From a virus (lineage: Duplodnaviria; Caudoviricetes): a stretch of 64,000 nt of DNA. How positions within the stretch are numbered: position 1 is the stretch's first letter; the number at the start of each line of letters is the position of its first letter. Under the pieces are notes generated by a model. That model searched no databases and was not told the DNA's origin. It was given only the letters and a program-made list of their open reading frames with translations. The DNA is taken from positions 24,531 to 88,530 of IMG/VR virus record IMGVR_UViG_3300042452_000698. The stretch is one strand, 5' to 3'. Both the position numbers and the translations under genes were made by a program. This document shows positions 1 through 55,667 of the stretch, one piece after another.

Positions 1-661
1 GTCACCACTATCTTCAGAGTGGAACGAGTATGTACTTGGATTGTTTGATCCTAGTGAGCTTGTTGATGGAAACCCACTAGTGGCTGGACTAAGACGAGTT
101 GCAGAGCTTGTTTTAGGTCCATTAGTTTTTAGTGGTCCAACACAAGTATTTCCAGTTCAAAGAGATGATCATCATGGTAGAGCTACGGTTGTTTTTACTG
201 TAGAATTTGCCAACGGCGCAAGATACGCAGAAGTTGCAGATTCTTGGGAAGGTAATACTGATGATATGTTTTGTGCGTTTGCTGTAGCTATAGCAAGCAC
301 AAGAGCAGAAGCTAGGGCTTTGAGAAAAGCTTTAAAGATTAAGGCCGTCGCGGCAGAAGAACTAACAAAGAAGGATACCGCTAAGATTGTTAGAGAAATG
401 TCATCTACCAAAACAACTAGCGACGGTGACTATAATGATCAAAGTAGGATGAGTGATGCTCAATCTAACTTTATTGATGTAAAGTGCAAGCAATTAAATA
501 TTAATGGCTTGAATTTGCTAAAAGTGTTTAATCTGGATATAAATAAGAAGATTTCCAAGAAAGCTGCTAGCGATATTATAGATAAGCTAAATGATTTTCA
601 GAGAGATAAGAATTCTATACCAGAAGATTTATTAGGGTACCAACCAGAGTGGAGAAATTAA
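1..661 (+). CDS. Rad52/Rad22-like single-strand annealing protein (5'-truncated by window edge)
   Basis: Frame 2 is open from base 2 (SPLSSEWNEYVLGLFDP...). Motif AVAIASTRAEARALRKALKI...AAEEL after a beta-rich segment resembles Rad52/Sak-type SSAPs. C-terminal MSDAQSNFI...ISKKAASDIIDKL helical tail is typical of phage SSAPs. Confidence 0.55.
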   Translation, partial: SPLSSEWNEYVLGLFDPSELVDGNPLVAGLRRVAELVLGPLVFSGPTQVFPVQRDDHHGRATVVFTVEFANGARYAEVADSWEGNTDDMFCAFAVAIASTRAEARALRKALKIKAVAAEELTKKDTAKIVREMSSTKTTSDGDYNDQSRMSDAQSNFIDVKCKQLNINGLNLLKVFNLDINKKISKKAASDIIDKLNDFQRDKNSIPEDLLGYQPEWRN

Positions 662-996
662 TGAGACTTACATATACTACAAAGAATGGCAGAATTAAGG
701 TAGAAGTAGAAGGCGAATCTCAGAAGGATCTATTTTTAGAACTTAGTCGCTTTCAAGAAGTTTTCGAAGAGACAAACTGTGGAAAGTGCGGATCTGATGA
801 TTTAAGATTTATCGTTAGAACCGTGGATGATAATCAGTACTATGAACTCAAGTGTATGAAGTGTGGTGCTAGATTAGCGTTTGGTGTTCATAAGAAGGGT
901 GGCGGTTTATTTCCAAAGAGGAAAGATAGTGATGGCAAGTGGTTGCCAGACAATGGGTGGGTAAAGTGGAACCCAAAGACTGAGCAATCGGAATAA
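661..996 (+). CDS. Zn-ribbon protein (CGKC...CMKC), function unknown
   Basis: ATG at 661 overlaps the upstream stop (TAATG), with GGAG at 651-654. Two CxxC pairs. Confidence 0.7.
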   Translation: MRLTYTTKNGRIKVEVEGESQKDLFLELSRFQEVFEETNCGKCGSDDLRFIVRTVDDNQYYELKCMKCGARLAFGVHKKGGGLFPKRKDSDGKWLPDNGWVKWNPKTEQSE

Positions 997-1022
997 TTAC
1001 AATTTCTTTTCTTGGATAGAAG

Positions 1023-1057
1023 TACCCGTAGTAGATTCCTACTGCGGGTATTTTTTT
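1023..1057 (+). terminator. Rho-independent terminator where the + and - gene blocks converge
   Basis: Stem TACCCGTAGTAG / CTACTGCGGGTA (12 bp, one G-U), loop ATTC, followed by T7. Confidence 0.85.
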
Positions 1058-1148
1058 ATCTCATGTATATCAAGAACCATGCCATAAATGTTGCTAGAAC
1101 AGTCGCTAATGTTGCCATGCAAAATAAAAATGCATTAATTTTATTCAT
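1056..1148 (-). CDS. 30-aa single-pass membrane peptide (not in the ORF track)
   Basis: Hand translation MNKINAFLFCMATLATVLATFMAWFLIYMR*. Its ATG overlaps the patatin TGA (ATGA coupling). About 22-residue hydrophobic core. Confidence 0.6.
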   Translation of the reverse strand: MNKINAFLFCMATLATVLATFMAWFLIYMR

Positions 1149-2008
1149 ATTATTCCATTCTTTTTTAATAGAGTGTTAAAGCTATATTTCTTAAATATGT
1201 AATTTAGCTCTTCTGAATCTCTTATAATATAATTTTTCTGCCCCAAGACCGTTCCTGTTTTAGCCATATAAAAGTCTGTATTCTCAAAAAATACTTCTGT
1301 TGGCTCTACTATGTTTATATTTATTTTATCCCTATCGTATTTTGTACTATTGCCTAGCCACCCCTCCAAATCTCTTACTAAGATTTCAAATAAGTTTATT
1401 TCTAAGGCTCTTAATCCCATTAGAAGTGGAGATAAAAACCCGTTTGGTATTCTATTCCACTTTGATAAAAATAGTGGCCTTCCAAGTATTAAATAAACAT
1501 CTGTGCATCCAGAGTTAACGCATTTTTCAATTGGGGCTATTTCTCTACTACCAGCGTCAACCCATCCATTTCTATCTTGAACTAATCCGCTTATAGCTAC
1601 GCTTCCTAAAATAGCTTCTTTGAATGTGTTTAAGTCTGAACTTTTATTGGAAACATATTCTAGATAACCATCTAAAATATTCATTCTACAAACTACGCTT
1701 TCGCACGTTGCTGGATTTTTAAGGGCTTTTATAACTATTTTTTCCATAGGTTTTTGATTTAATAATCCAGATTTCCACAAAAATGAATAGTTCAAACCAA
1801 AAACGCTAAAGATATTTTTTATATCAGCCCATAGATTGACAAGCCCGTTTGGACCCAAATGAGAATATGCGGCAGAACAAATAGATCCAGAAGATATTCC
1901 TATTGTATAATCAGCTACCACGCCTTTTTCATATAAAGACAAAGCTATGCCAGCTTGGATAGAGCCTCTAGCGCCTTCTCCTGTAAAACAAAACCCAGTT
2001 TTTTTCAT
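1145..2008 (-). CDS. Patatin-like phospholipase
   Basis: Oxyanion-loop FTGEGARG, nucleophile elbow GISSG (GxSxG), and WVDAG (variant of the DGG catalytic Asp motif). Confidence 0.88.
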   Translation of the reverse strand: MKKTGFCFTGEGARGSIQAGIALSLYEKGVVADYTIGISSGSICSAAYSHLGPNGLVNLWADIKNIFSVFGLNYSFLWKSGLLNQKPMEKIVIKALKNPATCESVVCRMNILDGYLEYVSNKSSDLNTFKEAILGSVAISGLVQDRNGWVDAGSREIAPIEKCVNSGCTDVYLILGRPLFLSKWNRIPNGFLSPLLMGLRALEINLFEILVRDLEGWLGNSTKYDRDKININIVEPTEVFFENTDFYMAKTGTVLGQKNYIIRDSEELNYIFKKYSFNTLLKKNGII

Positions 2009-2532
2009 GCTAGTTCTCTCTCTTTTCTTGGAGAAGCTCCAAATAATGATACAATATATTCTAAAATATTCCAGAAAAATAACTTATCTAAAACTGGATT
2101 AGAGTAATTTGATAGAACACAATAATATCTATTAAATGGTTTTGTGTGATGAATAGAGTGTTGCCTTGGAGATTGTAGTAAACCAAGATCTTGAAAAAAT
2201 CTAATAAATTTGTTGCATCTTAAGTGTGACCAACAATGTATTTCGTTTGATTGAGACACTATCAACATTGTAAGCACTAAGAAATATAGCTGAAAATAGT
2301 AAAATAAACTAGCAAGTAATATACATGGAATTAGTGTTGTGGCATTTCTATAAAGATATGATCCTCTACAAAATTTAGTCATGTGCTTATGATGCTCTAT
2401 ATTTGGCTTAATTATATATTTACCAACTAGTGGCCAATCTGGATTGCCATATCTATCCTCCCACCAGTGAAATATTCCAGATATTAATTCTGCTAAAAAG
2501 AACGCAGCTATGAAATATAGTATATAGTACAT
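2005..2532 (-). CDS. CarF/TMEM189(PEDS1)/FAD4-family membrane lipid desaturase
   Basis: His boxes ELISGIFHWWED, EHHKH, NEIHCWSH and QHSIHH, plus YYCV..NY.NP.LD. Hydrophobic TM segments present. Confidence 0.85.
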   Translation of the reverse strand: MYYILYFIAAFFLAELISGIFHWWEDRYGNPDWPLVGKYIIKPNIEHHKHMTKFCRGSYLYRNATTLIPCILLASLFYYFQLYFLVLTMLIVSQSNEIHCWSHLRCNKFIRFFQDLGLLQSPRQHSIHHTKPFNRYYCVLSNYSNPVLDKLFFWNILEYIVSLFGASPRKERELA

Positions 2533-2534
2533 AA

Positions 2535-3317
2535 TTATTTATTTAAGAAAAAAGAATCAAACTCTTCTTTTAAACATTTTCTTATTTCTTCTGCATCTTC
2601 ACTATTTAGTAAGTTGTCGTATAGCTCTTCTTGTTTTTTAGATTTGAAAATAAATCTTCCTTCAAAAAATGCTTTAGATGCTCTTTCTAGGTTATAGTAT
2701 ATTATTCTTTTTAATTGAGGGTTTTGTTCTAAATGTTCTCTTGCTCTTTGCTTTGCGGTTATGTATAAAGCAATTGAATAAATAGAAAAGTCTAAACACC
2801 CAGAAACTTCATCTGTTCCTGTGTCTACCTTTATTTTTCTAGCATAGTCATCTATTGAAGATTCGCCACCGCATATATACGCCGTCCATTCATCTAGTAC
2901 ATATGTTGGTCTATCGTTCCAATATTTTAACTGATCGCTAAAGTATAATTTAAATCTATATGATCTTAAAGATGGTGGAATGTTGTCCTTAACATTTGAT
3001 AAAAGAAAATCTAATTCCTTAACAAGAGCAATTTTACCATTTAAACAATATAGTGCATTATGCCTTTCTTTGAGGCTAGAAGTATACATATTTCTATATG
3101 TTGCATGTATTCCGTGCGCACTTTCGTGAACATTTGTGCTTCTTCCGTTGTCATTACCAAAAGGGGCTTCTACAGAATGTGAGATTACATCTTGATATAT
3201 TCCAGCGTCATCGATCTGACGAATAAGTGGTATATCAACAAAATCTGGCAGAGGCTCTATAGAAAAAGAACTACTGCATATACAGAAATAGAAAAGAAAA
3301 CAGTATAATAGGCGCAT
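2535..3317 (-). CDS. Exported zincin-like metallopeptidase (HExxH)
   Basis: N-terminal signal-like peptide MRLLYCFLFYFCICSSSFS. TNVHESAHGIH motif, with downstream LDEWTAY as a candidate third Zn ligand. SD AGGAGG. Confidence 0.55.
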   Translation of the reverse strand: MRLLYCFLFYFCICSSSFSIEPLPDFVDIPLIRQIDDAGIYQDVISHSVEAPFGNDNGRSTNVHESAHGIHATYRNMYTSSLKERHNALYCLNGKIALVKELDFLLSNVKDNIPPSLRSYRFKLYFSDQLKYWNDRPTYVLDEWTAYICGGESSIDDYARKIKVDTGTDEVSGCLDFSIYSIALYITAKQRAREHLEQNPQLKRIIYYNLERASKAFFEGRFIFKSKKQEELYDNLLNSEDAEEIRKCLKEEFDSFFLNK

Positions 3318-3331
3318 AGGAGAATCCTCCT
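3318..3331 (-). promoter_or_regulatory. Hairpin sequestering the SD of the metallopeptidase gene
   Basis: Minus strand reads AGGAG-GATT-CTCCT-ATG: the SD pairs with a perfect complement directly before the start codon. Confidence 0.45.
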
Positions 3332-3337
3332 TTTATA

Positions 3338-3709
3338 TTAGTCACGCCCAAAGCACACGCACCAATATATTCTATTGTTTTTATCTTTAGCGTATCCACA
3401 ACCTATCTTGGTGTAGCTTCGACCCATGATATTAAGTCTGTGTCCCGGCGACCATAACCAAGCATTAATAACAGACTTTTCTGATGATTGACCCCAAGCT
3501 ATATTTTCTCCAACCACAGAAAATCCAAGATTCATTATACTTCTCATTGAAGAATGAATCATACGACCATTAGAAGCCATCCACTCTGCATGGTTTTGTG
3601 CATAACTCATTAACACTTCATCCTTTTTTAGTGGATGAATTTTTCCAAACCAGCTTTTAGCTCTGGCTTGATTGTGTAAATCAATTAGAGTGTCAGTACT
3701 AATACTCAT
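3338..3709 (-). CDS. CAP/SCP (PR-1/Tpx) domain protein
   Basis: LHNQAR...L...AQNHAEWM...IHS...GENIAWG...W..SPGHR.NI...YTKIG.G...YWC..FG matches the CAP consensus. Confidence 0.9.
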   Translation of the reverse strand: MSISTDTLIDLHNQARAKSWFGKIHPLKKDEVLMSYAQNHAEWMASNGRMIHSSMRSIMNLGFSVVGENIAWGQSSEKSVINAWLWSPGHRLNIMGRSYTKIGCGYAKDKNNRIYWCVCFGRD

Positions 3710-4419
3710 AGATATTCTACAGTAAAATATAATCCATACTGAGTTTTACTACCAACAGTTTCTGGTTCTGAGCTTAAAGCAACATACCAATCGTGCCTTG
3801 TTGATTGATGAACGCTTCCTTGCTGTGCTAAGTAACCTAAATTAACATTTGTGTCTTGAGAATTAGTATTTGTTCCACTTACTCCGGGAGAGTTAGTAAA
3901 TGGCATATCTAATAAAGACAACGCTGGATCAAACTCAAACCAGCTATTATCAGATCTTCCTTTAAAGCTTAAATTTGATACAGTTGATGTTGTTGCTGGA
4001 TGCCTTGATTCATACACATATGTAACAACGCCACTAGCATGATTATTTATACTATTTCTATCAAATATTCTTAATTTGCAGTTCTGAACTCTAACTGGTG
4101 ATGTGTGTGTAAATCTAATATTTAATGGGCATAAATAGTTTGGTAATCTATCTAAATTAATTTTTGATGCGGCATTTATACTCACTTCTCCTTGGGTTAC
4201 AGAGTCGCCCTTTGTGACTAAAGCCGTGTTATTTAGTCTAGCGCCTTCTAATGTGCCAATAGAATTTGTTATAAATGTTGTTGTTTGTTGAGATCCAACT
4301 GGAACAGAAATTCCAAAGCCGTTGCCGTAGAAACCAATACCAGAACCGGCGGAACTATTTATAGCCTGTCCGTCGCCGCCTTGATCTTTAATATTACCAT
4401 AAAATGTAATTTCTGCCAT
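3706..4419 (-). CDS. Hypothetical virion structural protein (beta-rich)
   Basis: 237-aa G/S/T/N-rich ORF with SD GGGAG, downstream of the tail-tip genes. Confidence 0.45.
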   Translation of the reverse strand: MAEITFYGNIKDQGGDGQAINSSAGSGIGFYGNGFGISVPVGSQQTTTFITNSIGTLEGARLNNTALVTKGDSVTQGEVSINAASKINLDRLPNYLCPLNIRFTHTSPVRVQNCKLRIFDRNSINNHASGVVTYVYESRHPATTSTVSNLSFKGRSDNSWFEFDPALSLLDMPFTNSPGVSGTNTNSQDTNVNLGYLAQQGSVHQSTRHDWYVALSSEPETVGSKTQYGLYFTVEYL

Positions 4420-4456
4420 AAAATTCTCCCTATATTTGTGGAAATCTATATAAATA

Positions 4457-4462
4457 ATACAC
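4457..4462 (-). promoter_or_regulatory. Putative late promoter motif GTGTAT (copy 1)
   Basis: GTGTATTATTTATATAG, about 38 nt upstream of the ATG at 4419. Confidence 0.5.
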
Positions 4463-4475
4463 GAAATTGGCTAAA

Positions 4476-7400
4476 TTATGTAACTCCAATTTCTAGTACA
4501 ATATACTGAGCAAAAGCGGCATCAAATGGCGTTTCCGTTCCTACTGTGTGTAGAATATCATTGTGCATAAAATAAAATGCATCATATCTTCCATTTCCTC
4601 CATTTGGGGTTATTTGGGTTCTTTCTTCTCCATCTGCTTTTAGTTTTCCATCGCCGCTGGATAAGGTTAGTTTTGTAATTGGTACTCTTTCTAATGGTCC
4701 TTGATCAATATATATTTTTTTATATACTTTACCATTTTTAGCCATTAATTTTGCTCCAAACCCAGTACCGTTTGTTTCTTGTCCAATTATACCGCCTCTT
4801 TTTGCGGTTTCGTTGTAAAAATTTATTGGAACATACCCTTCGCCTTTATTTAATATTGTCCATTTGCCTTCAATTAAAGATCCGTTTGGTCCAGTTTCAT
4901 TAATTTGAATTTGAGCGCCACCATTAAAATTTATTAAGTCTCCAGCTTTATAACCTTGTCCAGAAAATGTTTGATCTTCAACTCCGGGAGGTAAAACTTC
5001 TAAATCTGATTTTTTCACAATTTTAATTGATGATTCGTCTATTCCTATAACACGCCTATAATATCTAAATCCTCCACCACTAACCAGCATTCCACGCCTA
5101 ATTTTATTTACAAACCATTTGTTTTGTGATTTTAAAACAGAAGAAAATATTATTAGGGTTCCTTCTTGAATTCTAGAAATTTCACCATCGAATGTTGGTT
5201 CTGTAAAGTCTACACTATCATCTATTGGATTAAAATGTAATACAGAAAAATATCTTCCATCATAAAATGTTTGGCTGTCTGGCCACTGATCAAACATTCT
5301 AACGTGTAAAGCTGTGGTTCCCATACTAGTTATCGCGTCTGTTCGTTCTCTATCACCCCACTGTGCGACAAGCCTTTCTTTAATATCGCTTCCGGGAGAA
5401 TAACTTAGCACCAACCCGCCGGGGATTGTGATGATGCTTGGATTACTACCGGCGGCTGTTGCCTGTGGAGTCATTCCAAGAGATTGTTTTGTTTTAAATG
5501 TTACCGATATGTTTGCTGGAATAGATATTTTATTTTTTGATGCAATAATACCAATAACATTCGATCTTTCGTCGCCCATATCTTCTAATGGAATTATATC
5601 TGGACCACCAAGAGGTGCTGACTGAAGTTTAGCATGATTCGTGTATGGACCAAATCTAATGTAAGAGTCTCCTATAACGCCATTAGTAGAAGATGAAAGA
5701 TTAAATGTAAACATATTATTTCTTTCTGTAAAAGAAGTTGGAAATAATATATGTCTTTCTGTTGCTATTTTTCCTTCTTCTAAACCAGTGTTTAATTGAA
5801 ATACTTTTCCATCTCGCACCGTATTTCTTAAATTAGAATAAATAAAATTATTTGATTGAAAAATATAACTTAAACTTAATGCTGCCCCAAATTGCAATGG
5901 AGAAAATTGTATTATATTTGGTTGCGCTGGGCTTAATGCCAATAAATCTGATTTTGTGATATTGGGAGAAGACGGCGGTGTTGACGGAGAACTATTTGAT
6001 GATGTTTCATCATATGTTAAATAAGAATATCTTTCAGAAGATGTAAAATGATCTATAAAAAATTGTGGCAAATAATCTTGACTATTTGTTGGTATATTAA
6101 TTCTTTCTACTGGATATGAAAATTTCCCCTTGAATGATCCATTTAAAGCCATTTCTGCTGGAACTTGTAGTAAATTTGAATCAGTGGGATCATCTATATT
6201 TTTGAACAATCCCTTAATAGAGCTACGTAAATGTGGTATCACAATATGATCAGTATCGTTATCTTCCTGCTCGATAGAAAGAGGAATGCCGGTGACAAAA
6301 AATTTATGAATATTGTTATTATTAGTAGTAATATTTTTACCAACAGATATATCTTTAAATTTTAAAACAGACGCTGAAGTATATCCATTTGGAAAAACTG
6401 GTCCCCAAAAATTTGGAACATCACGAAAATACAACTCTTCAGAATCTGGTTTTAATACGTTCGTTCCAGCAATAACAGTTTTATTATTTGTTCCACCAAG
6501 TTCTTTGTGTAATTGGTCAAAAACTGTTGATTGATAATATCTAGTGCTTAATTCAATATCATATTCTTCCGGCTGCGGCAAATTGGAGCTTCTTGCTATA
6601 GCTTGTTCTGGAGTTAAATCAAAATAAATATTTAAAAGAGCAGTTTCTTGTTTATCTGCTCTTGCATTCTCAAGGTATTCAAAATGGTCTTGAACACTAA
6701 GGTCTTCTCCATTAATATATTGCATATAATACTTTATTTTCATTTTTTGCTCATAAACTTGTGGTGTTATGCGTGCGCTATATGCAAATCCGTTACCCTC
6801 TTTATATCTAATATCTCTAAAGAAGTCTTCATTGTTTACAATAAATTTTTGAAACTGCCATCTTCCTACGCCGGTTTGTTTATTTGTTGTTGGTATATCA
6901 AACCCTTGAATTATCCATTCATTATCAATGTGACTTAATAAAACAACGTCTCCCCTTTTAAATGTTCTATTAGATCTATTAACAACAAGTTTTTCTTCTA
7001 ATTTTTTAGATCCATCAATTGGACACCCAATATAATTTGGGCCATACATATACGGATTTCCATTTTCCATACTTAGTGGCAAGGCTTTTCCAACAGAAAA
7101 TTGTCCTATATATAGAGGAGAAGATGGATCATATACATCTTTAGAATTTCTTCCAGTAAAGCCATCTATAGAACCAACATTGGCAGAATCAACATCGGTT
7201 GTTAATCTTGCAAGAACTTGGTGCGTTCCAGATTGCCACATTCCAGTAGATTTATTATATCTAATATCTAATTTTCCAGCGACAGAGTTTGCTGGATTAC
7301 TTATTCCACCCTCACTTGGTCTTGTATAAACGCCGACATCAGAAAGATTTGTATTTTCTTGTCCAAATGTTAAATTGCTTATTGTTCTTGGTATATCTAC

Positions 7401-8000
7401 TATTAGCGGGCTTCCTCTTAATCCTATTGCTTTACCATCTTCCGGTCTTTCTCTTGTAAATAATTTTAATGTAATTTTTGGATTTTGCGTTCCAGTAATT
7501 GCATCATATTGCGCAGTAAACGACAAGCATCCAGAAAGACTAGTTTGTATTTTTGTGGATATATTTAAAATATCTTCTCTAGAAATTGCAGAATCTCCTT
7601 CTCCTCCAAGCAAATCGTCTTTAGTTGTGATAAACTTATCGTATAGAGTTAAAAAATTATCTAGTGACGATATAGACGAAACTTTATCAACAACAGTACC
7701 ATCATCCTTTACATACTTAAATATATTATTTCCGCTTTCATATTCATATTGATTGTCTATTTTATCAAATTTGATTATAGATAAGTCTGACAATTCTGGA
7801 CGTAATAATGCCTCTTTTGCATCATCAATGTTTTTGGTTGTCTCAAAAAAATCTTTAACATCAGAGTTGCTATCTTTTAAGAAATTTTCTAAAGAATTCT
7901 TTGTATATGAAGCCATTCCTAGCTGCCCAAGAGCAAAATCTTTTGTAGAAAAAATATGAAATTCCTTCTTTCTACTATATATATTCATGTTATTATTCAT
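4476..8000 (-). CDS. Tail tip/baseplate-associated structural protein
   Basis: 1174 aa, located in the tail-tip block. C-terminal ILNKGEGY / GTGFGAKL motifs resemble phage tail-fibre and baseplate beta repeats. Confidence 0.45.
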   Translation of the reverse strand: MNNNMNIYSRKKEFHIFSTKDFALGQLGMASYTKNSLENFLKDSNSDVKDFFETTKNIDDAKEALLRPELSDLSIIKFDKIDNQYEYESGNNIFKYVKDDGTVVDKVSSISSLDNFLTLYDKFITTKDDLLGGEGDSAISREDILNISTKIQTSLSGCLSFTAQYDAITGTQNPKITLKLFTRERPEDGKAIGLRGSPLIVDIPRTISNLTFGQENTNLSDVGVYTRPSEGGISNPANSVAGKLDIRYNKSTGMWQSGTHQVLARLTTDVDSANVGSIDGFTGRNSKDVYDPSSPLYIGQFSVGKALPLSMENGNPYMYGPNYIGCPIDGSKKLEEKLVVNRSNRTFKRGDVVLLSHIDNEWIIQGFDIPTTNKQTGVGRWQFQKFIVNNEDFFRDIRYKEGNGFAYSARITPQVYEQKMKIKYYMQYINGEDLSVQDHFEYLENARADKQETALLNIYFDLTPEQAIARSSNLPQPEEYDIELSTRYYQSTVFDQLHKELGGTNNKTVIAGTNVLKPDSEELYFRDVPNFWGPVFPNGYTSASVLKFKDISVGKNITTNNNNIHKFFVTGIPLSIEQEDNDTDHIVIPHLRSSIKGLFKNIDDPTDSNLLQVPAEMALNGSFKGKFSYPVERINIPTNSQDYLPQFFIDHFTSSERYSYLTYDETSSNSSPSTPPSSPNITKSDLLALSPAQPNIIQFSPLQFGAALSLSYIFQSNNFIYSNLRNTVRDGKVFQLNTGLEEGKIATERHILFPTSFTERNNMFTFNLSSSTNGVIGDSYIRFGPYTNHAKLQSAPLGGPDIIPLEDMGDERSNVIGIIASKNKISIPANISVTFKTKQSLGMTPQATAAGSNPSIITIPGGLVLSYSPGSDIKERLVAQWGDRERTDAITSMGTTALHVRMFDQWPDSQTFYDGRYFSVLHFNPIDDSVDFTEPTFDGEISRIQEGTLIIFSSVLKSQNKWFVNKIRRGMLVSGGGFRYYRRVIGIDESSIKIVKKSDLEVLPPGVEDQTFSGQGYKAGDLINFNGGAQIQINETGPNGSLIEGKWTILNKGEGYVPINFYNETAKRGGIIGQETNGTGFGAKLMAKNGKVYKKIYIDQGPLERVPITKLTLSSGDGKLKADGEERTQITPNGGNGRYDAFYFMHNDILHTVGTETPFDAAFAQYIVLEIGVT

Positions 8001-8007
8001 TTTAGTC

Positions 8008-11000
8008 CTATGTTATATCTTGTTGTTCGAATGGAGTCTCTTGATTAAAATATAAAGAATAAAATCCATCAGTAGATGCTACTGATTGTTGAGATGGCAT
8101 ACTTTCATGATCTGGAGCAAGTGAGGCTGGAGCAAATATTTCTGGGATTGTTTTTGTTACAGAGTTACGATCAGCAACAGCAAAATCATTTACGTCAGTA
8201 AATTGCCCAACAGTTGCAGCAATATCTCCATAGCTTTGAACGCTACCCTCATGAGTATATTGAGACACTTCATGTACACCTTGCTCTCCAACTGATGGAC
8301 TAGAACTCCATCTTAATTCTTTGTTTTTATTAACACCTAAAGCGATTACGTTGGTAGCATTCGATGGACCAGTGAAGAGACTGCCTTTTCCACTTAATGT
8401 TGCGTCTGTAGATTTTTGTAATTTTTCATATTCTTTCAAATAATTTACTGAAGCTTGAGCTTTTCCGAGTCCTTTTCTTATTAAGGCGTTTCTTTCATCT
8501 TTTAGTTTTTGTCTTTCTCTACTAAGTTTTGATATAGCTTCTTGTTTTTGTTTTTGTAGTTTTCCAAAATTAGCAGTATAAAGATCCATTTTTATAGTAG
8601 TTTTTATCCCAGCGTCAGAAACGTCTACTTGTAAATTAGTAACAAGTGGTCCCAAATTTAACAGACTTTTTCCAAGAGATACTTTTGGGGGAATTCCGGG
8701 AACAACAAAACCTCCACGTTCTGAAAATAGTAATAAACTTTGTGCAAATTTTGCTTGTTCTATTCCGGCTTGATTCATTAAATAATATCCATCATAATTC
8801 CACGGAGCTAAATTTTCATCTTTTATAAATTCTATTCTACCGCCTATGTTGCTATATACTATAGATTGCACATCAATTTGAGAAGATACCCAAGGCCCGT
8901 AACATCTTTCTTTTGACATTAATGGCAAACATACCAAATCTGGATATATTGGTGATGGCATCGTAAAGTTTACATTGTTCGGAAAGGCGATAGATATACG
9001 TTTAATAGCCTCTCTAGAAGCAAACCACGCTTGATTAATAACTTCAACCTTTTTATTAATAAGAAGATTAAATAATTGTGTTGGTTCTTTTTCCATAAAA
9101 GGTGGTAAGTTAAATCCAGCAACTTCTTTATCAACGGTGTCCATTGTTAAGAAACGTTTAAATGTTTCTGCGTTTAATGATTGTAGAACACTGTCTCTAT
9201 ATCTTCCATCTTTAGTTGGAATAACTCTACCCGGCAGTGTTATTAGTGCATAAACATTATTAGTATCTAAATCTTTTAAATTAGTTTTTATTAACCAGCT
9301 TTTAAATAAATTTTCTTCATCATTTTGTGGTTTATAACAATCAAATGTTAATACATTTACAGGTGAACCAAGTTTATTTGTTGGAACAAAAACCGATCTA
9401 TAAAAAGAATAACTATCATTATATTTATCTTCACACGGGTCATATATTTTTCTTGGCGGAATAAACGTTTTTAATTCTTTGATTTCTTGTCCAGCAACTT
9501 TAACACCGCTCATGATACACTTGGGTGGCATATAAAACTTATCATCTACTGAGCATTTTACAAACACAACACTCTCTTTTGTTGTTGTTTCTTCGCTATT
9601 TCTTGGTCCAAATTTAATTTCTTTGTTTCCTTCATCTTTAACATTATCTAAAGTCTCATTAAAGTCTACAATAAATCCATCTGCTGTTTTTATCTGCTGA
9701 ATAAAATCGTTAGAATTTAAATTTTCTAATGATAAAAATTGGCTATGATCGAATCTAACATATGGTGAAACTCTCTTGTTCTCAGTAATAAAGTTTGTTA
9801 AATCTACTGGTATTAATGTTTGTACTATTCCAAGTGGCCTATTTTGTTGTGGTGTTCTATTGATAGACGATGCCGCAATGAAATTAGAATATAAATCAAA
9901 ATCAAAAAATCCACCATCATTTATAGGAGTATAATTAAATTCTATTTGATCTGATATTGGATTATAGTTACATTTTAATGAGCCAGAAAATTTTTCTTCT
10001 GTTCCAGATCCTAAATGATGTTGTAATTCATAGAACGTCATTGGCCCAATATGTTCGGAAGACGCCTCGATACGCTTTGATGTAATTTCATTGGCAAATT
10101 CTGGACTAAATTCATATCCTACTACCGAAGACAATGGCCTTGGCACAAACCCAAACGGACCCTGTATAAATCTTTTTGGTCCACTTTTTTGACTTGGGTT
10201 TATAGAGAATTCTTCTTTTTCTTCTTCTGGCTGCGGTTGTCTATCTTGAATATCAATAATCTTTCTATCATAAAATAAATTTGTTGCTCTTGGAATTTTT
10301 ACCAAAAACTTTTTTCCAAGGCATTCATCTGCAATACTCTTAACAAAATTATATACTTTCAATGCATTTTCTGTATTTTTTTTTGAAATTTTACCTAAAT
10401 TATTTAATATGGGTGATGATGATTTTAAATATTCCTCCATAAATACTAGAGCTTTTTCTATATCTTCTTTTGAGCTTTCTGTGTCCTCTTCTGCGTCTTT
10501 AATCAAGTTTTCTATTTGTTCAAAATATGCTTTATCAAATTCAGATAATTCTCCATATTCTTTAATAGATTTTAATCTAGTAAATTCTGAATTTAATATA
10601 GCTTTATAATTATTATTATCTGGAGATGTTGCTAATAATTGATAACTATTAATAATAGATGTTATTTTTGATCCTATTGCAGTTAAACCAGCCTCTGGAA
10701 TTCCAATCTTTGTGGCCCGCTTATAATAAAGAGGATATCCATAAGGAGGATTGCAAGGACTACTTGGTAGATTATCTTCACCAAATTCTGGAAAAGGGGC
10801 GTATGAATATGTCGGAAAAAGTGATCTTGGAACTGTTACTCCATAATTATTTGATATTTTTGTTCTAGGATTAATATCTGATCCAACCGGAGGCATTCCG
10901 GTTTGATTTACTAATCTTAAAAGGCCAGCTTCTTCTTCTGTATCATTTATTTCTAATGATGTAACATAGTTATCATTATATTGTAAAAGAAATTCTTTCC

Positions 11001-54547: not shown

Positions 54548-54591
54548 AAAAGTCTCCTAATTTATCCTAAAATGATATCATATACTGTTAT

Positions 54592-54597
54592 ATACAC
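54592..54597 (-). promoter_or_regulatory. Putative late promoter motif GTGTAT (copy 4)
   Basis: TGTGTATATAACAG directly abutting the U-tract of the MCP terminator, about 45 nt upstream of the ATG at 54547. Confidence 0.55.
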
Positions 54598-54631
54598 AAA
54601 AGAGCCACCCCCATTTGCTGAAGGTGGCTCT
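54596..54631 (-). terminator. Rho-independent terminator after the major capsid gene
   Basis: Minus strand AGAGCCACC(TTC)-AGCAAAT-(GGG)GGTGGCTCT followed by TTTGTGT. Confidence 0.8.
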
Positions 54632-54659
54632 CTGTGAATCACTAGTAATTACATTCTTA

Positions 54660-55667
54660 TTAGAATGATCCTAGAATTACTCTTCTGTTGTCAAGAACAC
54701 CAAAGCCGAGTTCGGCCCAACCGTAATAGCCAGCGCGTTGCTGACGATGTAGTGTTGGATCTTCGAAAACCTGTAGCTGTTGCTTGACGGGCATAACGAA
54801 ACTATCTCTTGAGGATTGGTCTAGACCAACGACAACTTCTGTGTCGCTTGACTGAACCGCACCAGAAAGATCGTTGAGGAAGAAGTCTTGATATTCTTGA
54901 CCTTCGCCAAGTTCATCAAGATCATGAAGATTAACACCGAAGATTCTGGTGAGTGGAGCGCCACCCTCAGTAGCGGTGTAAATTTCACGACGAGTAACTT
55001 CGTCAACTTGATCTAATCCCCAGTTGCGAACGTCTTCAAGAGCTTCTGGACTAACATACATATCAGTAAGACGGCCACGACCAACTGATGCGCTATTGCC
55101 ACCAGAGTTACGACGCATTACTGTTTGCATGAGAGAAACGAGTCTCTTTGAGAACATTCCGGCTGTGGCATCGGCATCATAAACGAGAAGATTACGATCA
55201 ACACCGGCAGCAAGAATTGTGTGCCATCCGTCATCGTTCATCTTCTTTGTGAAGCCAGCTTCCATAACCTGCATTGCACGACCAACAATGTCCCATCTGG
55301 CTTCGCGGGCATAGCGAAGTAGATAGTCGATTGAAGATGTGATGCTATATGTTGGGATCATCACATAGTCGCCTTCAACACTTCTTTCTGGAATTCTTCC
55401 GTGGCCGGGATTTGTGTAAGCAACATGCTCACCTTCTAGGCCGGGAGAAATTAGATCGAGAGGATATTCTGTGGTAGCGCCGGGTTCAACATTCATTGTT
55501 TCGAAGATGTTGCCAAGAACATTACCAACTAAAACACCCTTTCGTAAAGGTAACTCAAGAGCTTTAGCGAACTCTCTTTGAGCCGCCATCGCTACATTAA
55601 CATCGCCATCCCCTGACTTACGTAGGAGAGCGATAAACTCATCGCTAGGTCTAGTATTAATTGCCAT
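54660..55667 (-). CDS. Major capsid protein (HK97-like fold)
   Basis: 335 aa with strong SD AAGGAG and a terminator after it. Pattern P.Y.I...I.Y...YAR.ARWD.V.RA......F.KK.N.DG and a C-terminal G.Y...E.GFGV.D.R fit an MCP. Follows the protease/scaffold and decoration genes. Confidence 0.85.
   Translation of the reverse strand: MAINTRPSDEFIALLRKSGDGDVNVAMAAQREFAKALELPLRKGVLVGNVLGNIFETMNVEPGATTEYPLDLISPGLEGEHVAYTNPGHGRIPERSVEGDYVMIPTYSITSSIDYLLRYAREARWDIVGRAMQVMEAGFTKKMNDDGWHTILAAGVDRNLLVYDADATAGMFSKRLVSLMQTVMRRNSGGNSASVGRGRLTDMYVSPEALEDVRNWGLDQVDEVTRREIYTATEGGAPLTRIFGVNLHDLDELGEGQEYQDFFLNDLSGAVQSSDTEVVVGLDQSSRDSFVMPVKQQLQVFEDPTLHRQQRAGYYGWAELGFGVLDNRRVILGSF

What the first reader, a model, noticed from the sequence alone, without database searches (positions are those of the whole stretch)
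1056..4462. Phage late cassette for lipid and envelope remodelling: CAP + exported metallopeptidase + CarF/TMEM189 desaturase + patatin + TM peptide
Seen in sequence: five tightly coupled genes close the late region, behind their own GTGTAT motif at 4457 and the structural gene at 3706-4419. Established: CarF/PEDS1 enzymes make the vinyl-ether bond of plasmalogens (FAD4 homologues desaturate plant PG), patatins are acyl hydrolases, and CAP domains often bind lipids. Inference: this is a coordinated membrane-modifying module in the position where lysis genes often sit. No holin/endolysin is visible in the window, so it may be a non-canonical lysis system (lipase + protease + membrane peptide), or it may remodel host lipids against oxidative stress or superinfection. 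I am not aware of this gene combination being described in phages.
Basis: partly seen in the sequence, partly recalled or inferred. Interest (0 to 1): 0.78.

Follow-up and report, generated by a model that had tools for sequence, protein, structure and literature searches.

The report
Accessory envelope-gene insertion in lake phage
The five genes are real, but they are a lineage-specific patchwork of independently mobile accessory genes at a variable spot in a large uncultured lake phage, not a conserved lysis system; the one new piece is a widespread, uncharacterised pairing of a CAP protein with an exported HExxH protein.

Summary
All five ORFs exist and are tightly coupled on the minus strand at the 3' end of the late operon. 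CAP, PF10520 desaturase and patatin calls hold. The "metallopeptidase" is an exported protein with an invariant HExxH, from a large family with no Pfam model and no solved relative, so peptidase activity is unproven.

The block is not conserved. In 15 related phage contigs the last late gene abuts the convergent replication module. Four relatives that are at least 94% complete lack the CAP, HExxH and patatin genes entirely, and two carry the desaturase elsewhere.

The contig is only about half a genome; a collinear relative is 166.6 kb. So "no endolysin visible" carries little weight. Complete relatives without the cassette also show no recognisable endolysin.

The desaturase has the eight universal histidines but lacks the ninth, which marks plasmalogen-making CarF/PEDS1 enzymes.

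The patatin belongs to a large phage gene family and is never linked to the other genes elsewhere.

CAP and HExxH genes do recur together: adjacent in about 37 of 84 phage loci, and fused in one protein. They often sit beside a membrane-anchored thioredoxin.

Verdict: a late-expressed patchwork of envelope- and lipid-directed accessory genes. A lysis role is not supported.

The parts
4420..4475 (-). Intergenic spacer with a late-promoter-like box (GTGTAT core at 4457-4462), upstream of the conserved late gene.
   Evidence: The same TTTGTGTATAT-like box lies in 5 of the few late-strand intergenic spacers: 4457, 36977, 44108, 54592 and 57680.
3706..4419 (-). g237: conserved last gene of the late or virion operon. 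It is not part of the insertion, and no family match was found.
   Evidence: 47-76% identical homologues sit in the same position in 15 related contigs. No Pfam or PHROG hit.
3338..3709 (-). CAP123: CAP/SCP/PR-1 (YkwD-like) domain protein without a signal peptide.
   Evidence: PF00188 6e-19. TIGR02909 4e-20 and DalA model 1.6e-9. The HNxxR and GENI motifs are read directly from the sequence. The ORF is maximal and starts at profile position 2.
2535..3317 (-). pep260: exported HExxH protein of a large uncharacterised family. It is the conserved partner of CAP.
   Evidence: H64, E65, H68, D142 and E143 are invariant. AF2 pLDDT is 95.7, with no solved-structure match. The family has 1,313 representatives at 50% identity. 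It is adjacent to a CAP gene in about 37 of 84 phage loci and fused to CAP in P0375.
2005..2532 (-). des175: PF10520 membrane lipid desaturase of the eight-histidine (FAD4/alphaproteobacterial) type.
   Evidence: PF10520 2e-40. NF045946 scores 89 bits against a 500-bit cut-off. Eight His and D26 are invariant, and there is no ninth His.
1145..2008 (-). pat287: patatin-like acyl hydrolase without a signal peptide. Its catalytic motifs are intact.
   Evidence: PF01734 scores 29.8 bits. GEGARG, G37-x-S39-x-G41 and D151-A-G153 are invariant in 17 homologues. At least 308 homologous clusters exist.
1056..1148 (-). tm30: 30-aa single-helix membrane peptide. It is probably the native terminal gene of the operon.
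   Evidence: Sequence. 31-aa homologues lie directly after the g237 homologue in L013 and L015.
1016..1050 (.). Hairpin at the convergence point. It is an intrinsic terminator for the + strand module and a weaker hairpin for the late strand.
   Evidence: + strand: -24.8 kcal/mol, z -6.9, followed by U7. - strand: -15.8 kcal/mol, z -4.6.
649..996 (+). p115: last gene of the convergent replication and glycosyltransferase module. It marks the other edge of the variable junction.
   Evidence: 67-91% identical homologues face the g237 homologue in most relatives (35-48% in the two most distant contigs) across a gap of 116-1406 nt.

Best explanation
The region is the 3' end of the late (virion) transcription unit of an uncultured freshwater phage whose complete relative is 166.6 kb.

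What it is. Four accessory genes have been inserted between the last conserved late gene (g237) and a small membrane-peptide gene (tm30). The site is the convergent junction with the replication module, which is a variable spot in this phage family. The insert is a patchwork of three independently mobile units:
1. A CAP-domain protein plus a Sec-exported HExxH protein. This pair recurs as neighbours, and once as a fusion, in several unrelated phage lineages, often next to a membrane-anchored thioredoxin. It most likely acts in the periplasm or envelope as a metal-dependent hydrolase with a CAP partner.
2. An eight-histidine PF10520 inner-membrane desaturase of the FAD4/alphaproteobacterial type. 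It is not a plasmalogen-making CarF/PEDS1.
3. A cytoplasmic patatin acyl hydrolase with an intact Ser-Asp dyad, from a very large phage gene family.

How it most likely works (inferred). All are transcribed late from the promoter-like box upstream of g237, and by read-through, and are translationally coupled. The desaturase introduces a double bond near the head-group end of a host phospholipid chain. The patatin deacylates inner-leaflet phospholipids. The exported pair modifies envelope protein or cell wall. Together they alter the host envelope late in infection as a dispensable fitness add-on. They are not the phage's core lysis machinery.

Shown versus inferred. Shown: gene identities, motif integrity, the insertion and its absence in relatives, and the CAP-HExxH linkage. 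Inferred: timing, localisation, substrates and benefit.
For: - Gene and domain identities.
- Insertion: 15 related contigs go from the g237 homologue straight to the convergent p115 homologue. The gaps are 116-1406 nt and hold other small, variable ORFs.
- Dispensability: four relatives that are at least 94% complete have 0/4 CAP, 0/4 HExxH, 0/4 patatin and 2/4 desaturase, the latter at another site.
- Stability: the same cassette is seen on 11 contigs from several samples.
- Independent units: the patatin loci (9) never carry the other genes. The desaturase lies within 8 kb of the pair in only 4 other contigs. CAP and HExxH genes are adjacent in about 37 of 84 loci, in either order, and fused in P0375.
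- Extracytoplasmic setting of the pair:
  - Homologues share the N-terminal hydrophobic segment.
  - Neighbours are a membrane-anchored thioredoxin, a PspC-domain protein, and trypsin-like and M28 peptidases.
  - Bacterial fusions join it to a matrixin-like domain and an Fn3-like module, and an SLH-domain family is a structural neighbour.
  - The CAP lipoprotein DalA binds peptidoglycan (PMC10470522).
- Late co-expression: the promoter-like box and the lack of any internal terminator.
- The cassette's base composition equals that of the other late genes.
Against: - No biochemical activity is shown for any product.
- CAP123 has no signal peptide, so how it would meet an exported partner is unclear.
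- The adjacency counts are inflated by two large phage lineages; only about 6-7 contexts are independent.
- The tight translational coupling of all five genes, together with small membrane or lipoprotein genes next to the pair in other phages, would also fit a late lysis-related role.
- No canonical endolysin was found anywhere in this phage family, so a lysis function for some unrecognised gene must exist somewhere.
Confidence: 0.62

Rival explanations
1. One reading: the five genes form one coordinated, non-canonical lysis system. A lipase, a protease and a membrane peptide, with desaturase support, would replace the holin, endolysin and spanin.
For: - The genes sit at the very end of the late operon and are tightly coupled.
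- No endolysin family is found in the contig.
- The patatin catalytic motifs are intact.
Against: - The block is absent in 15 relatives at this site, and three of its four genes are absent from relatives that are at least 94% complete. These relatives must still lyse their hosts.
- Those relatives equally lack recognisable endolysins.
- The contig is only about half a genome.
- The four genes do not travel together in other phages.
- Patatin contexts elsewhere are not lysis-like.
Confidence: 0.07
2. Only the CAP + HExxH pair, perhaps with tm30, is lysis-related. It would be a new signal-anchored cell-wall hydrolase or lysis accessory. The desaturase and patatin would be unrelated passengers.
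For: - In other phages the pair sits beside small membrane proteins and lipoproteins. One lineage has a 98-aa N-terminal-TM coiled-coil protein and a lipoprotein with an LLGC lipobox. L045 has a 57-aa lipoprotein and a 78-aa two-TM protein.
- Four phage genomes at least 91% complete that carry the HExxH gene lack Phage_lysozyme, Amidase_2, SLT and M15_4 matches.
- CAP domains are fused to LysM in Bacillus phages, and the CAP protein DalA binds peptidoglycan (PMC10470522).
- An SLH-anchored family is a structural neighbour.
Against: - Close relatives of this phage lack the pair.
- The most frequent neighbours are a thioredoxin and a PspC-domain protein, not known lysis proteins, and no PHROG lysis family matched the context proteins.
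- Fusion to a matrixin-like protease, and trypsin and M28 neighbours, point to proteolysis rather than cell-wall cleavage.
- Small membrane ORFs are common in phage genomes.
Confidence: 0.15
3. The genes serve competition rather than release. Late-made exported enzymes and lipid changes would destroy or mask receptors and alter the envelope of the infected cell or its debris. This would block superinfection or stop progeny being trapped on debris.
For: - The distribution is accessory and patchy, at a variable junction next to glycosyltransferase genes.
- The HExxH protein is exported and has protease neighbours.
- In Bacillus phages the CAP gene is a stand-alone moron.
Against: - There is no direct evidence.
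- Late expression is an odd time for superinfection exclusion.
Confidence: 0.1

Closest known systems
Plant FAD4 and alphaproteobacterial CarF homologues (PF10520, eight-histidine type)
   Same: - Matches PF10520 over its full length.
- Eight invariant His, plus the Asp four residues after the first His.
- Lacks the ninth His.
- The nearest cellular hit is an alphaproteobacterial MAG protein at 39% identity (PMC9131029).
   Different: - Only 175 aa.
- Phage-encoded.
- Substrate unknown.
- FAD4's trans-delta-3 activity on phosphatidylglycerol is an analogy, not a test.
CarF / TMEM189 (PEDS1) plasmanylethanolamine desaturase
   Same: Same superfamily and the same di-iron histidine scaffold.
   Different: - 89 bits against the 500-bit equivalog cut-off.
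- No His at the position of CarF H113.
- Asn where mouse F118 lies.
- Homologues with these features failed to complement carF (PMC9131029).
Cyanophage DesA/DesC-type lipid desaturase auxiliary genes (from my own knowledge, not checked here)
   Same: A phage-borne membrane lipid desaturase that behaves as an accessory gene.
   Different: A different enzyme family (PF00487 type), and different hosts and phage lineage.
Secreted LysM/SCP-PR1 proteins of Bacillus Slashvirus phages, and the CAP lipoprotein DalA of Rhodobacter
   Same: A CAP domain of the YkwD type, found in a phage or a cell-envelope setting (PMC10470522).
   Different: CAP123 has neither a signal peptide nor LysM, and it is paired with an HExxH protein. 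The Bacillus phage genes stand alone.
Canonical holin-endolysin-spanin cassettes and the mycobacteriophage LysB lipid esterase (from my own knowledge)
   Same: A late position, a small membrane peptide, and the presence of a lipid hydrolase.
   Different: - No recognised endolysin, holin or spanin family.
- Not conserved among relatives.
- The patatin has no export signal.
- LysB is a cutinase-like esterase, not a patatin.
Patatin-like phospholipase genes flagged as putative viral auxiliary genes in freshwater viromes (PMC9469726)
   Same: The same Pfam family, found in uncultured freshwater viruses.
   Different: That report is mostly about Phycodnaviridae. Here the family is a compact ~275-aa group with at least 308 clusters, found in tailed-phage contigs.

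Membership tests
CAP / SCP / PR-1 superfamily (PF00188) | Match to the family profile above its curated cut-off | tested here: met
   69.4 bits against 21.1, covering profile positions 2-115 of 117.
CAP / SCP / PR-1 superfamily (PF00188) | Signature motifs HNxxR and G-E-N-[IV] | tested here: met
   H12-N-Q-A-R16 and G67-E-N-I70, read from the translation.
CAP / SCP / PR-1 superfamily (PF00188) | Secretion signal (most members are extracellular) | tested here: not met
   The maximal ORF begins 9 residues before the domain and has no hydrophobic N-terminus. Some phage homologues have a signal and others do not.
Lipid_desat (PF10520; Kua/CarF/FAD4 superfamily) | Profile match above the cut-off | tested here: met
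   138.9 bits against 26.4, covering positions 2-174 of 175.
Lipid_desat (PF10520; Kua/CarF/FAD4 superfamily) | Eight universally conserved histidines | tested here: met
   H22, 47, 48, 99, 103, 125, 128 and 129 are invariant in 17 phage-clade sequences. The requirement is stated in PMC9131029.
CarF/PEDS1 plasmanylethanolamine desaturase (NF045946 equivalog) | Score above the equivalog cut-off | tested here: not met
   89.1 bits against 500.
CarF/PEDS1 plasmanylethanolamine desaturase (NF045946 equivalog) | Ninth essential histidine (CarF H113 / mouse H131), nine residues after the HH pair | tested here: not met
   Positions 56/57 are R/G and vary in the clade. H50 is not conserved. Placement is by the conserved 25-residue spacing from the first His to the HH pair, not by alignment to CarF itself.
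CarF/PEDS1 plasmanylethanolamine desaturase (NF045946 equivalog) | Complements a carF mutant or makes vinyl-ether lipids | not testable with these tools
   Needs genetics and lipidomics.
Patatin-like phospholipase (PF01734) | Profile match above the cut-off | tested here: met
   29.8 bits against 27.7, which is marginal. The precomputed Pfam call is the same for all homologues.
Patatin-like phospholipase (PF01734) | Gly-rich oxyanion motif with Arg, GxSxG nucleophile, and D-G/A-G catalytic Asp | tested here: met
   G10-E-G-A-R-G15, G37-I-S39-S-G41 and D151-A-G153 are invariant in 17 sequences.
Zincin metallopeptidases (HExxH) | HExxH on a helix, plus a third metal ligand | tested here: inconclusive
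   HExxH is invariant on helix 59-82. D142/E143 are invariant on helix 139-159. The geometry could not be inspected.
Zincin metallopeptidases (HExxH) | Sequence or fold similarity to any known peptidase family | tested here: inconclusive
   No Pfam, PHROG, NCBIfam or PDB-sequence match. Foldseek found nothing. The best VIA Z scores, 6.1 and 5.4, are to two non-peptidase HExxH or metal proteins and lie below the noise level for helical folds.
Phage lysis cassette (holin / endolysin / spanin) | A recognisable cell-wall hydrolase domain | tested here: not met
   None in the cassette or in the rest of the contig.
Phage lysis cassette (holin / endolysin / spanin) | Conservation in related phages, since lysis is essential | tested here: not met
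   Absent at the site in 15 relatives, and CAP, HExxH and patatin are absent from four near-complete relatives.
Phage lysis cassette (holin / endolysin / spanin) | A holin-like small membrane protein | tested here: inconclusive
   tm30 has one helix but only 30 aa. It is conserved in two relatives that lack the cassette.
Phage accessory genes (morons / auxiliary metabolic genes) | Patchy presence among close relatives, at a variable site, with homologues scattered in unrelated phages | tested here: met
Phage accessory genes (morons / auxiliary metabolic genes) | Own promoter and terminator (classical moron definition) | tested here: not met
   The genes are embedded in and translationally coupled to the late operon, with no internal promoter box or terminator.

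The most novel reading that the evidence does not exclude
The CAP protein and the exported HExxH protein would form a previously unrecognised two-component envelope-acting system of aquatic phages, with bacterial relatives. It could be a new class of cell-wall or envelope-protein hydrolase whose activity is directed or held in check by a CAP partner. It could then be the missing lysis enzyme in phages that have no recognisable endolysin. In this phage it would be combined with the first PF10520-type desaturase reported from a virus.
Probability: 0.25. Interest if true: 0.7.

Novelty: new variant of a known kind. Interest (0 to 1): 0.42.

Why it matters
- It removes an attractive but unsupported story, a lipase-based lysis system, and replaces it with a testable one.
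- It shows that the junction between the late and replication modules is a landing site for envelope-directed accessory genes in a family of ~150-175 kb lake phages with almost no cultured relatives.
- It defines a large HExxH family that has no Pfam, PHROG, NCBIfam or solved-structure match. The family has 1,313 representatives at 50% identity, is confidently folded and has no solved homologue. Its linkage to CAP domains (adjacency and fusion) gives the first handle on bacterial YkwD-like CAP proteins, whose function is still open.
- It shows that PF10520 desaturases occur in phages. No paper in the searched library pairs PF10520 with phage. The ninth-histidine test separates these enzymes from plasmalogen synthases, which guards against over-reading them as plasmalogen genes or as host markers.
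- It notes that a whole phage family lacks any recognisable endolysin.

Tried and rejected
- Nucleotide search of the first 8 kb against GenBank phages: no match.
- tblastn of the HExxH protein against GenBank phages: no match. The desaturase gave 2 weak records and the patatin 1.
- The major capsid protein hits only Bacillus phage G, at 22%, so no cultured relative or host could be named.
- No tRNA genes.
- Fold searches for the HExxH model:
  - Foldseek against PDB and BFVD found nothing at E <= 0.001.
  - The exhaustive VIA search gave Z <= 6.1, within the noise for helical proteins.
  - A profile against PDB sequences found nothing.
- I considered reading the top VIA hits (SjiH-Ni and the ChlB HExxH oxygenase domain) as evidence for an alpha-ketoglutarate oxygenase. 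I rejected this as too weak.
- PHROG scans in alignment mode list only 25 families, so they cannot exclude a weak lysis family. One weak Pfam family for the + strand set, and five for part of G001, were also not displayed.
- Pelagimyophage idea: literature searches were empty or irrelevant, and the capsid does not match that group.
- Recent horizontal acquisition judged by composition: rejected, because GC, GC3 and codon usage equal the rest of the late genes.

Full report
**What is there.** The window is bases 24,531-88,530 of an 88.5-kb virus record. Genes on the + strand run up to window position 996. They encode replication functions (split DNA polymerase III alpha, DnaB, primase, RecA-like) and several glycosyltransferases. 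Everything from 1056 to the end of the window is on the minus strand and is virion-related: capsid-like, tape measure, fibres and giant proteins.

The two modules converge at about 1000-1055. A hairpin there is a textbook terminator for the + strand (-24.8 kcal/mol, z -6.9, followed by U7). On the late strand it is a weaker hairpin.

Their junctions are 4-nt overlaps, a 2-nt gap, and one 20-nt gap holding a strong ribosome-binding site.

**Identities.**

*CAP123.* It matches PF00188 (6e-19) and the YkwD model (4e-20), and more weakly the peptidoglycan-binding lipoprotein DalA model (PMC10470522). It has no export signal.

*des175.* It matches PF10520 over its full length (2e-40).

*pat287.* It is just above the patatin cut-off (29.8 bits against 27.7). 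In 17 homologues the Gly-rich/Arg motif, the GxSxG serine and the D-A-G aspartate are all invariant.

*pep260.* It matches nothing in Pfam, PHROGs, NCBIfam or PDB sequences.
- It has an N-terminal hydrophobic segment that all homologues share.
- H64-E65-x-x-H68 is invariant, as are D142/E143 and several aromatic residues.
- It folds with very high confidence (pLDDT 95.7) into a mostly helical domain that has no convincing solved or viral-model neighbour.
- "Exported HExxH protein" is therefore established. "Metallopeptidase" is a reasonable guess only.

*tm30.* It is a 30-residue single helix.

**The promoter motif.** GTGTAT as a hexamer is not enriched: 22 copies against 31 expected. But five of the fourteen minus-strand copies fall within the mere 553 nt of late-strand intergenic DNA. 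Each is part of a TTTGTGTATAT-like box 35-45 nt upstream of a start codon. The box at 4457 precedes the conserved gene g237, not the cassette. No promoter-like box or terminator lies inside the cassette. The cassette therefore rides on the late transcript.

**The contig is a fragment.** A relative with terminal repeats, rated 100% complete, is 166.6 kb. Our contig is collinear with its 43.0-130.4 kb segment. The missing ~79 kb in that relative holds the terminase, prohead protease, ribonucleotide reductase, PhoH, Thy1 and many small genes.

So "no endolysin in the window" says little by itself. Even so, I found no endolysin family in several places:
- the rest of our contig;
- the extra regions of the complete relative;
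- six-frame searches of four or five near-complete relatives for Phage_lysozyme, Amidase_2 and M23, and of the one complete relative for SLT and M15_4.

The whole family therefore lyses with something unrecognised, whether or not the cassette is present.

**Synteny.** Fifteen related phage contigs carry the 1616-aa, 1174-aa and g237 homologues in order. They then run directly into the convergent p115/p219 homologues. The gap is 116-1406 nt and never contains CAP, HExxH, desaturase or patatin genes.

That gap is variable. Its contents include:
- a tm30 homologue immediately after g237 in two relatives;
- a secreted Pro/Val-rich 93-99-aa ORF;
- a 106-aa ORF;
- a family-2 glycosyltransferase.

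In four relatives that are at least 94% complete, CAP, HExxH and patatin homologues are absent from the whole genome. The desaturase is present in two, but some 95 kb away, among small genes. The desaturase hit serves as the positive control for the tool.

The cassette itself is stable. The identical HExxH protein is on 11 contigs from several samples, and the longest fetched one shows the same five-gene order. Its base composition and codon usage match the other late genes.

The block is therefore an insertion of four genes between g237 and tm30.

**Which genes travel together.**

*Patatin.* Homologues at 55-59% identity occur in nine IMG/VR phage contigs, and at least 308 clusters exist in metagenomes. 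They are never near the other three genes. Their neighbourhoods are not lysis-like, and a ~280-aa partner family of unknown function recurs.

*Desaturase.* Homologues at 38-58% identity occur in about ten phage contigs. Four distinct ones have a CAP or HExxH gene within 8 kb, but not adjacent.

*CAP and HExxH.* By contrast, about 37 of about 84 HExxH loci have a CAP gene next door, in either order.
- Two large lineages dominate these counts, so perhaps six or seven contexts are independent.
- The profile search found 1,313 family representatives, including an 896-aa protein that carries both domains. This is a Rosetta-stone fusion.
- Other fusions join the HExxH domain to a matrixin-like protease domain and to an Fn3-like module.
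- An SLH-anchored Bacillota family is a structural neighbour.

*Neighbours of the pair.* In one lineage, the gene upstream of the HExxH gene is a membrane-anchored thioredoxin-fold protein, preceded by a PspC-domain membrane protein. In another contig the pair follows a thioredoxin, a trypsin-like protease and an M28 peptidase, all with signals. A third lineage interleaves a 98-aa membrane coiled-coil protein and a lipoprotein.

All of this places the pair outside the cytoplasm. It does not say what the pair cuts.

**The desaturase is not CarF-like.** The review of CarF/TMEM189 makes two points (PMC9131029):
- Eight histidines are universal.
- A ninth (CarF H113, mouse H131) is present only in the metazoan, myxobacterial and Leptospira enzymes that make plasmalogens, and is essential there. 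Plant and alphaproteobacterial homologues lack it and did not complement carF.

The phage clade has exactly eight invariant histidines, plus the aspartate four residues after the first. The spacing from the first His to the HH pair is 25 residues, as in mouse H96 to H121. This places the ninth-His position at residues 56/57, which are Arg/Gly and variable. The position of mouse F118 is an invariant Asn.

The CarF equivalog model scores 89 bits against a 500-bit cut-off. The nearest cellular homologue is alphaproteobacterial. I therefore file it under PF10520 but not under PEDS1. FAD4-like chemistry is an analogy only.

**Most likely mechanism.**
- Transcription and translation: late transcription from the box at 4457, and by read-through, with coupled translation.
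- pep260: exported, and probably binds a metal through H64, H68 and E143.
- CAP123: its partner. Its role may be targeting (as in peptidoglycan binding by DalA and LysM-CAP fusions in Bacillus phages) or regulation.
- des175: an oxygen-dependent inner-membrane desaturase acting near the head-group end of a phospholipid chain.
- pat287: a cytoplasmic Ser-Asp acyl hydrolase acting on the inner leaflet.
- Net effect: a late change of envelope lipids and proteins that is useful but dispensable.

Localisation, substrates and benefit are all inferred.

**Comparison with what is known.** Phage accessory genes for lipid desaturation (cyanophage DesA/DesC type; my own knowledge), patatin genes in freshwater viromes (PMC9469726) and secreted CAP proteins in Bacillus phages are all known kinds.

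What I did not find described:
- a PF10520 enzyme in a phage (0 papers with PF10520 and phage; three unrelated papers with the enzyme name and phage);
- the CAP-HExxH pairing.

**Verdict.** The finding is a new variant of a known kind (an accessory-gene patchwork). It contains one interesting lead, the CAP-HExxH pair.

Noticed in passing
window 4457, 36977, 44108, 54592, 57680 (minus strand): A TTTGTGTATAT-like box sits 35-45 nt upstream of five late genes, inside only 553 nt of late-strand intergenic DNA. It is probably this phage family's late promoter.
   Followed up: partly
whole record; G001 (L029-L037): The 88.5-kb record is about half a genome. A collinear relative with terminal repeats is 166.6 kb, and it holds the terminase, Clp-type protease, RNR, PhoH and Thy1 in the parts missing here.
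   Followed up: yes
G000-G004, G006-G009: No Phage_lysozyme or Amidase_2 match in eight phage genomes at least 91% complete, and no SLT, M15_4 or M23 match in the five searched for each. These are relatives of this phage and unrelated carriers of the HExxH gene. Their lysis enzymes are unrecognised.
   Followed up: partly
L012-L026, about 8700-10100: The junction between the last late gene and the convergent module is a variable spot. In different relatives it holds a secreted Pro/Val-rich 93-99-aa ORF, a 106-aa ORF, a 120-aa ORF or a family-2 glycosyltransferase.
   Followed up: partly
P0375, P0301, P0349: There are bacterial multidomain forms of the HExxH domain. One is fused to a CAP domain, one to a matrixin-like (MMP/karilysin) protease domain, and one to an Fn3-like module.
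   Followed up: partly
L063, L064, L083, L084, L090, L092, L093, L094 around 7100-9100: A conserved four-gene string occurs in another large-phage lineage: a PspC-domain membrane protein, a membrane-anchored thioredoxin, the HExxH protein, and (often) CAP. The same contigs encode prepilin-type N-terminal proteins that I recall, unchecked, as typical of Planctomycetota/Verrucomicrobiota.
   Followed up: partly
L049, L051, L052, L054, L055, L057: The phage patatin gene is repeatedly near a ~280-290-aa protein family with no Pfam or PHROG match. This may be its real functional partner.
   Followed up: no
window 54548-54659: A GC-rich hairpin followed by a T-run lies directly after the capsid-like gene 54660-55667. 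The next promoter-like box follows it, giving a terminator-promoter pair around the most highly expressed gene.
   Followed up: no
window 54660-55667: The capsid-like protein's only match among 50,697 GenBank phage records is Bacillus phage G, at 22% identity. This phage family has no cultured relative in that collection.
   Followed up: partly
genome 16.8-25.2 kb (before and at the window start): Five glycosyltransferase-family matches (three GT1, two GT2) occur among the + strand proteins. Relatives add GDP-mannose dehydratase, an epimerase and sulfotransferases. The family carries many envelope-sugar genes.
   Followed up: no
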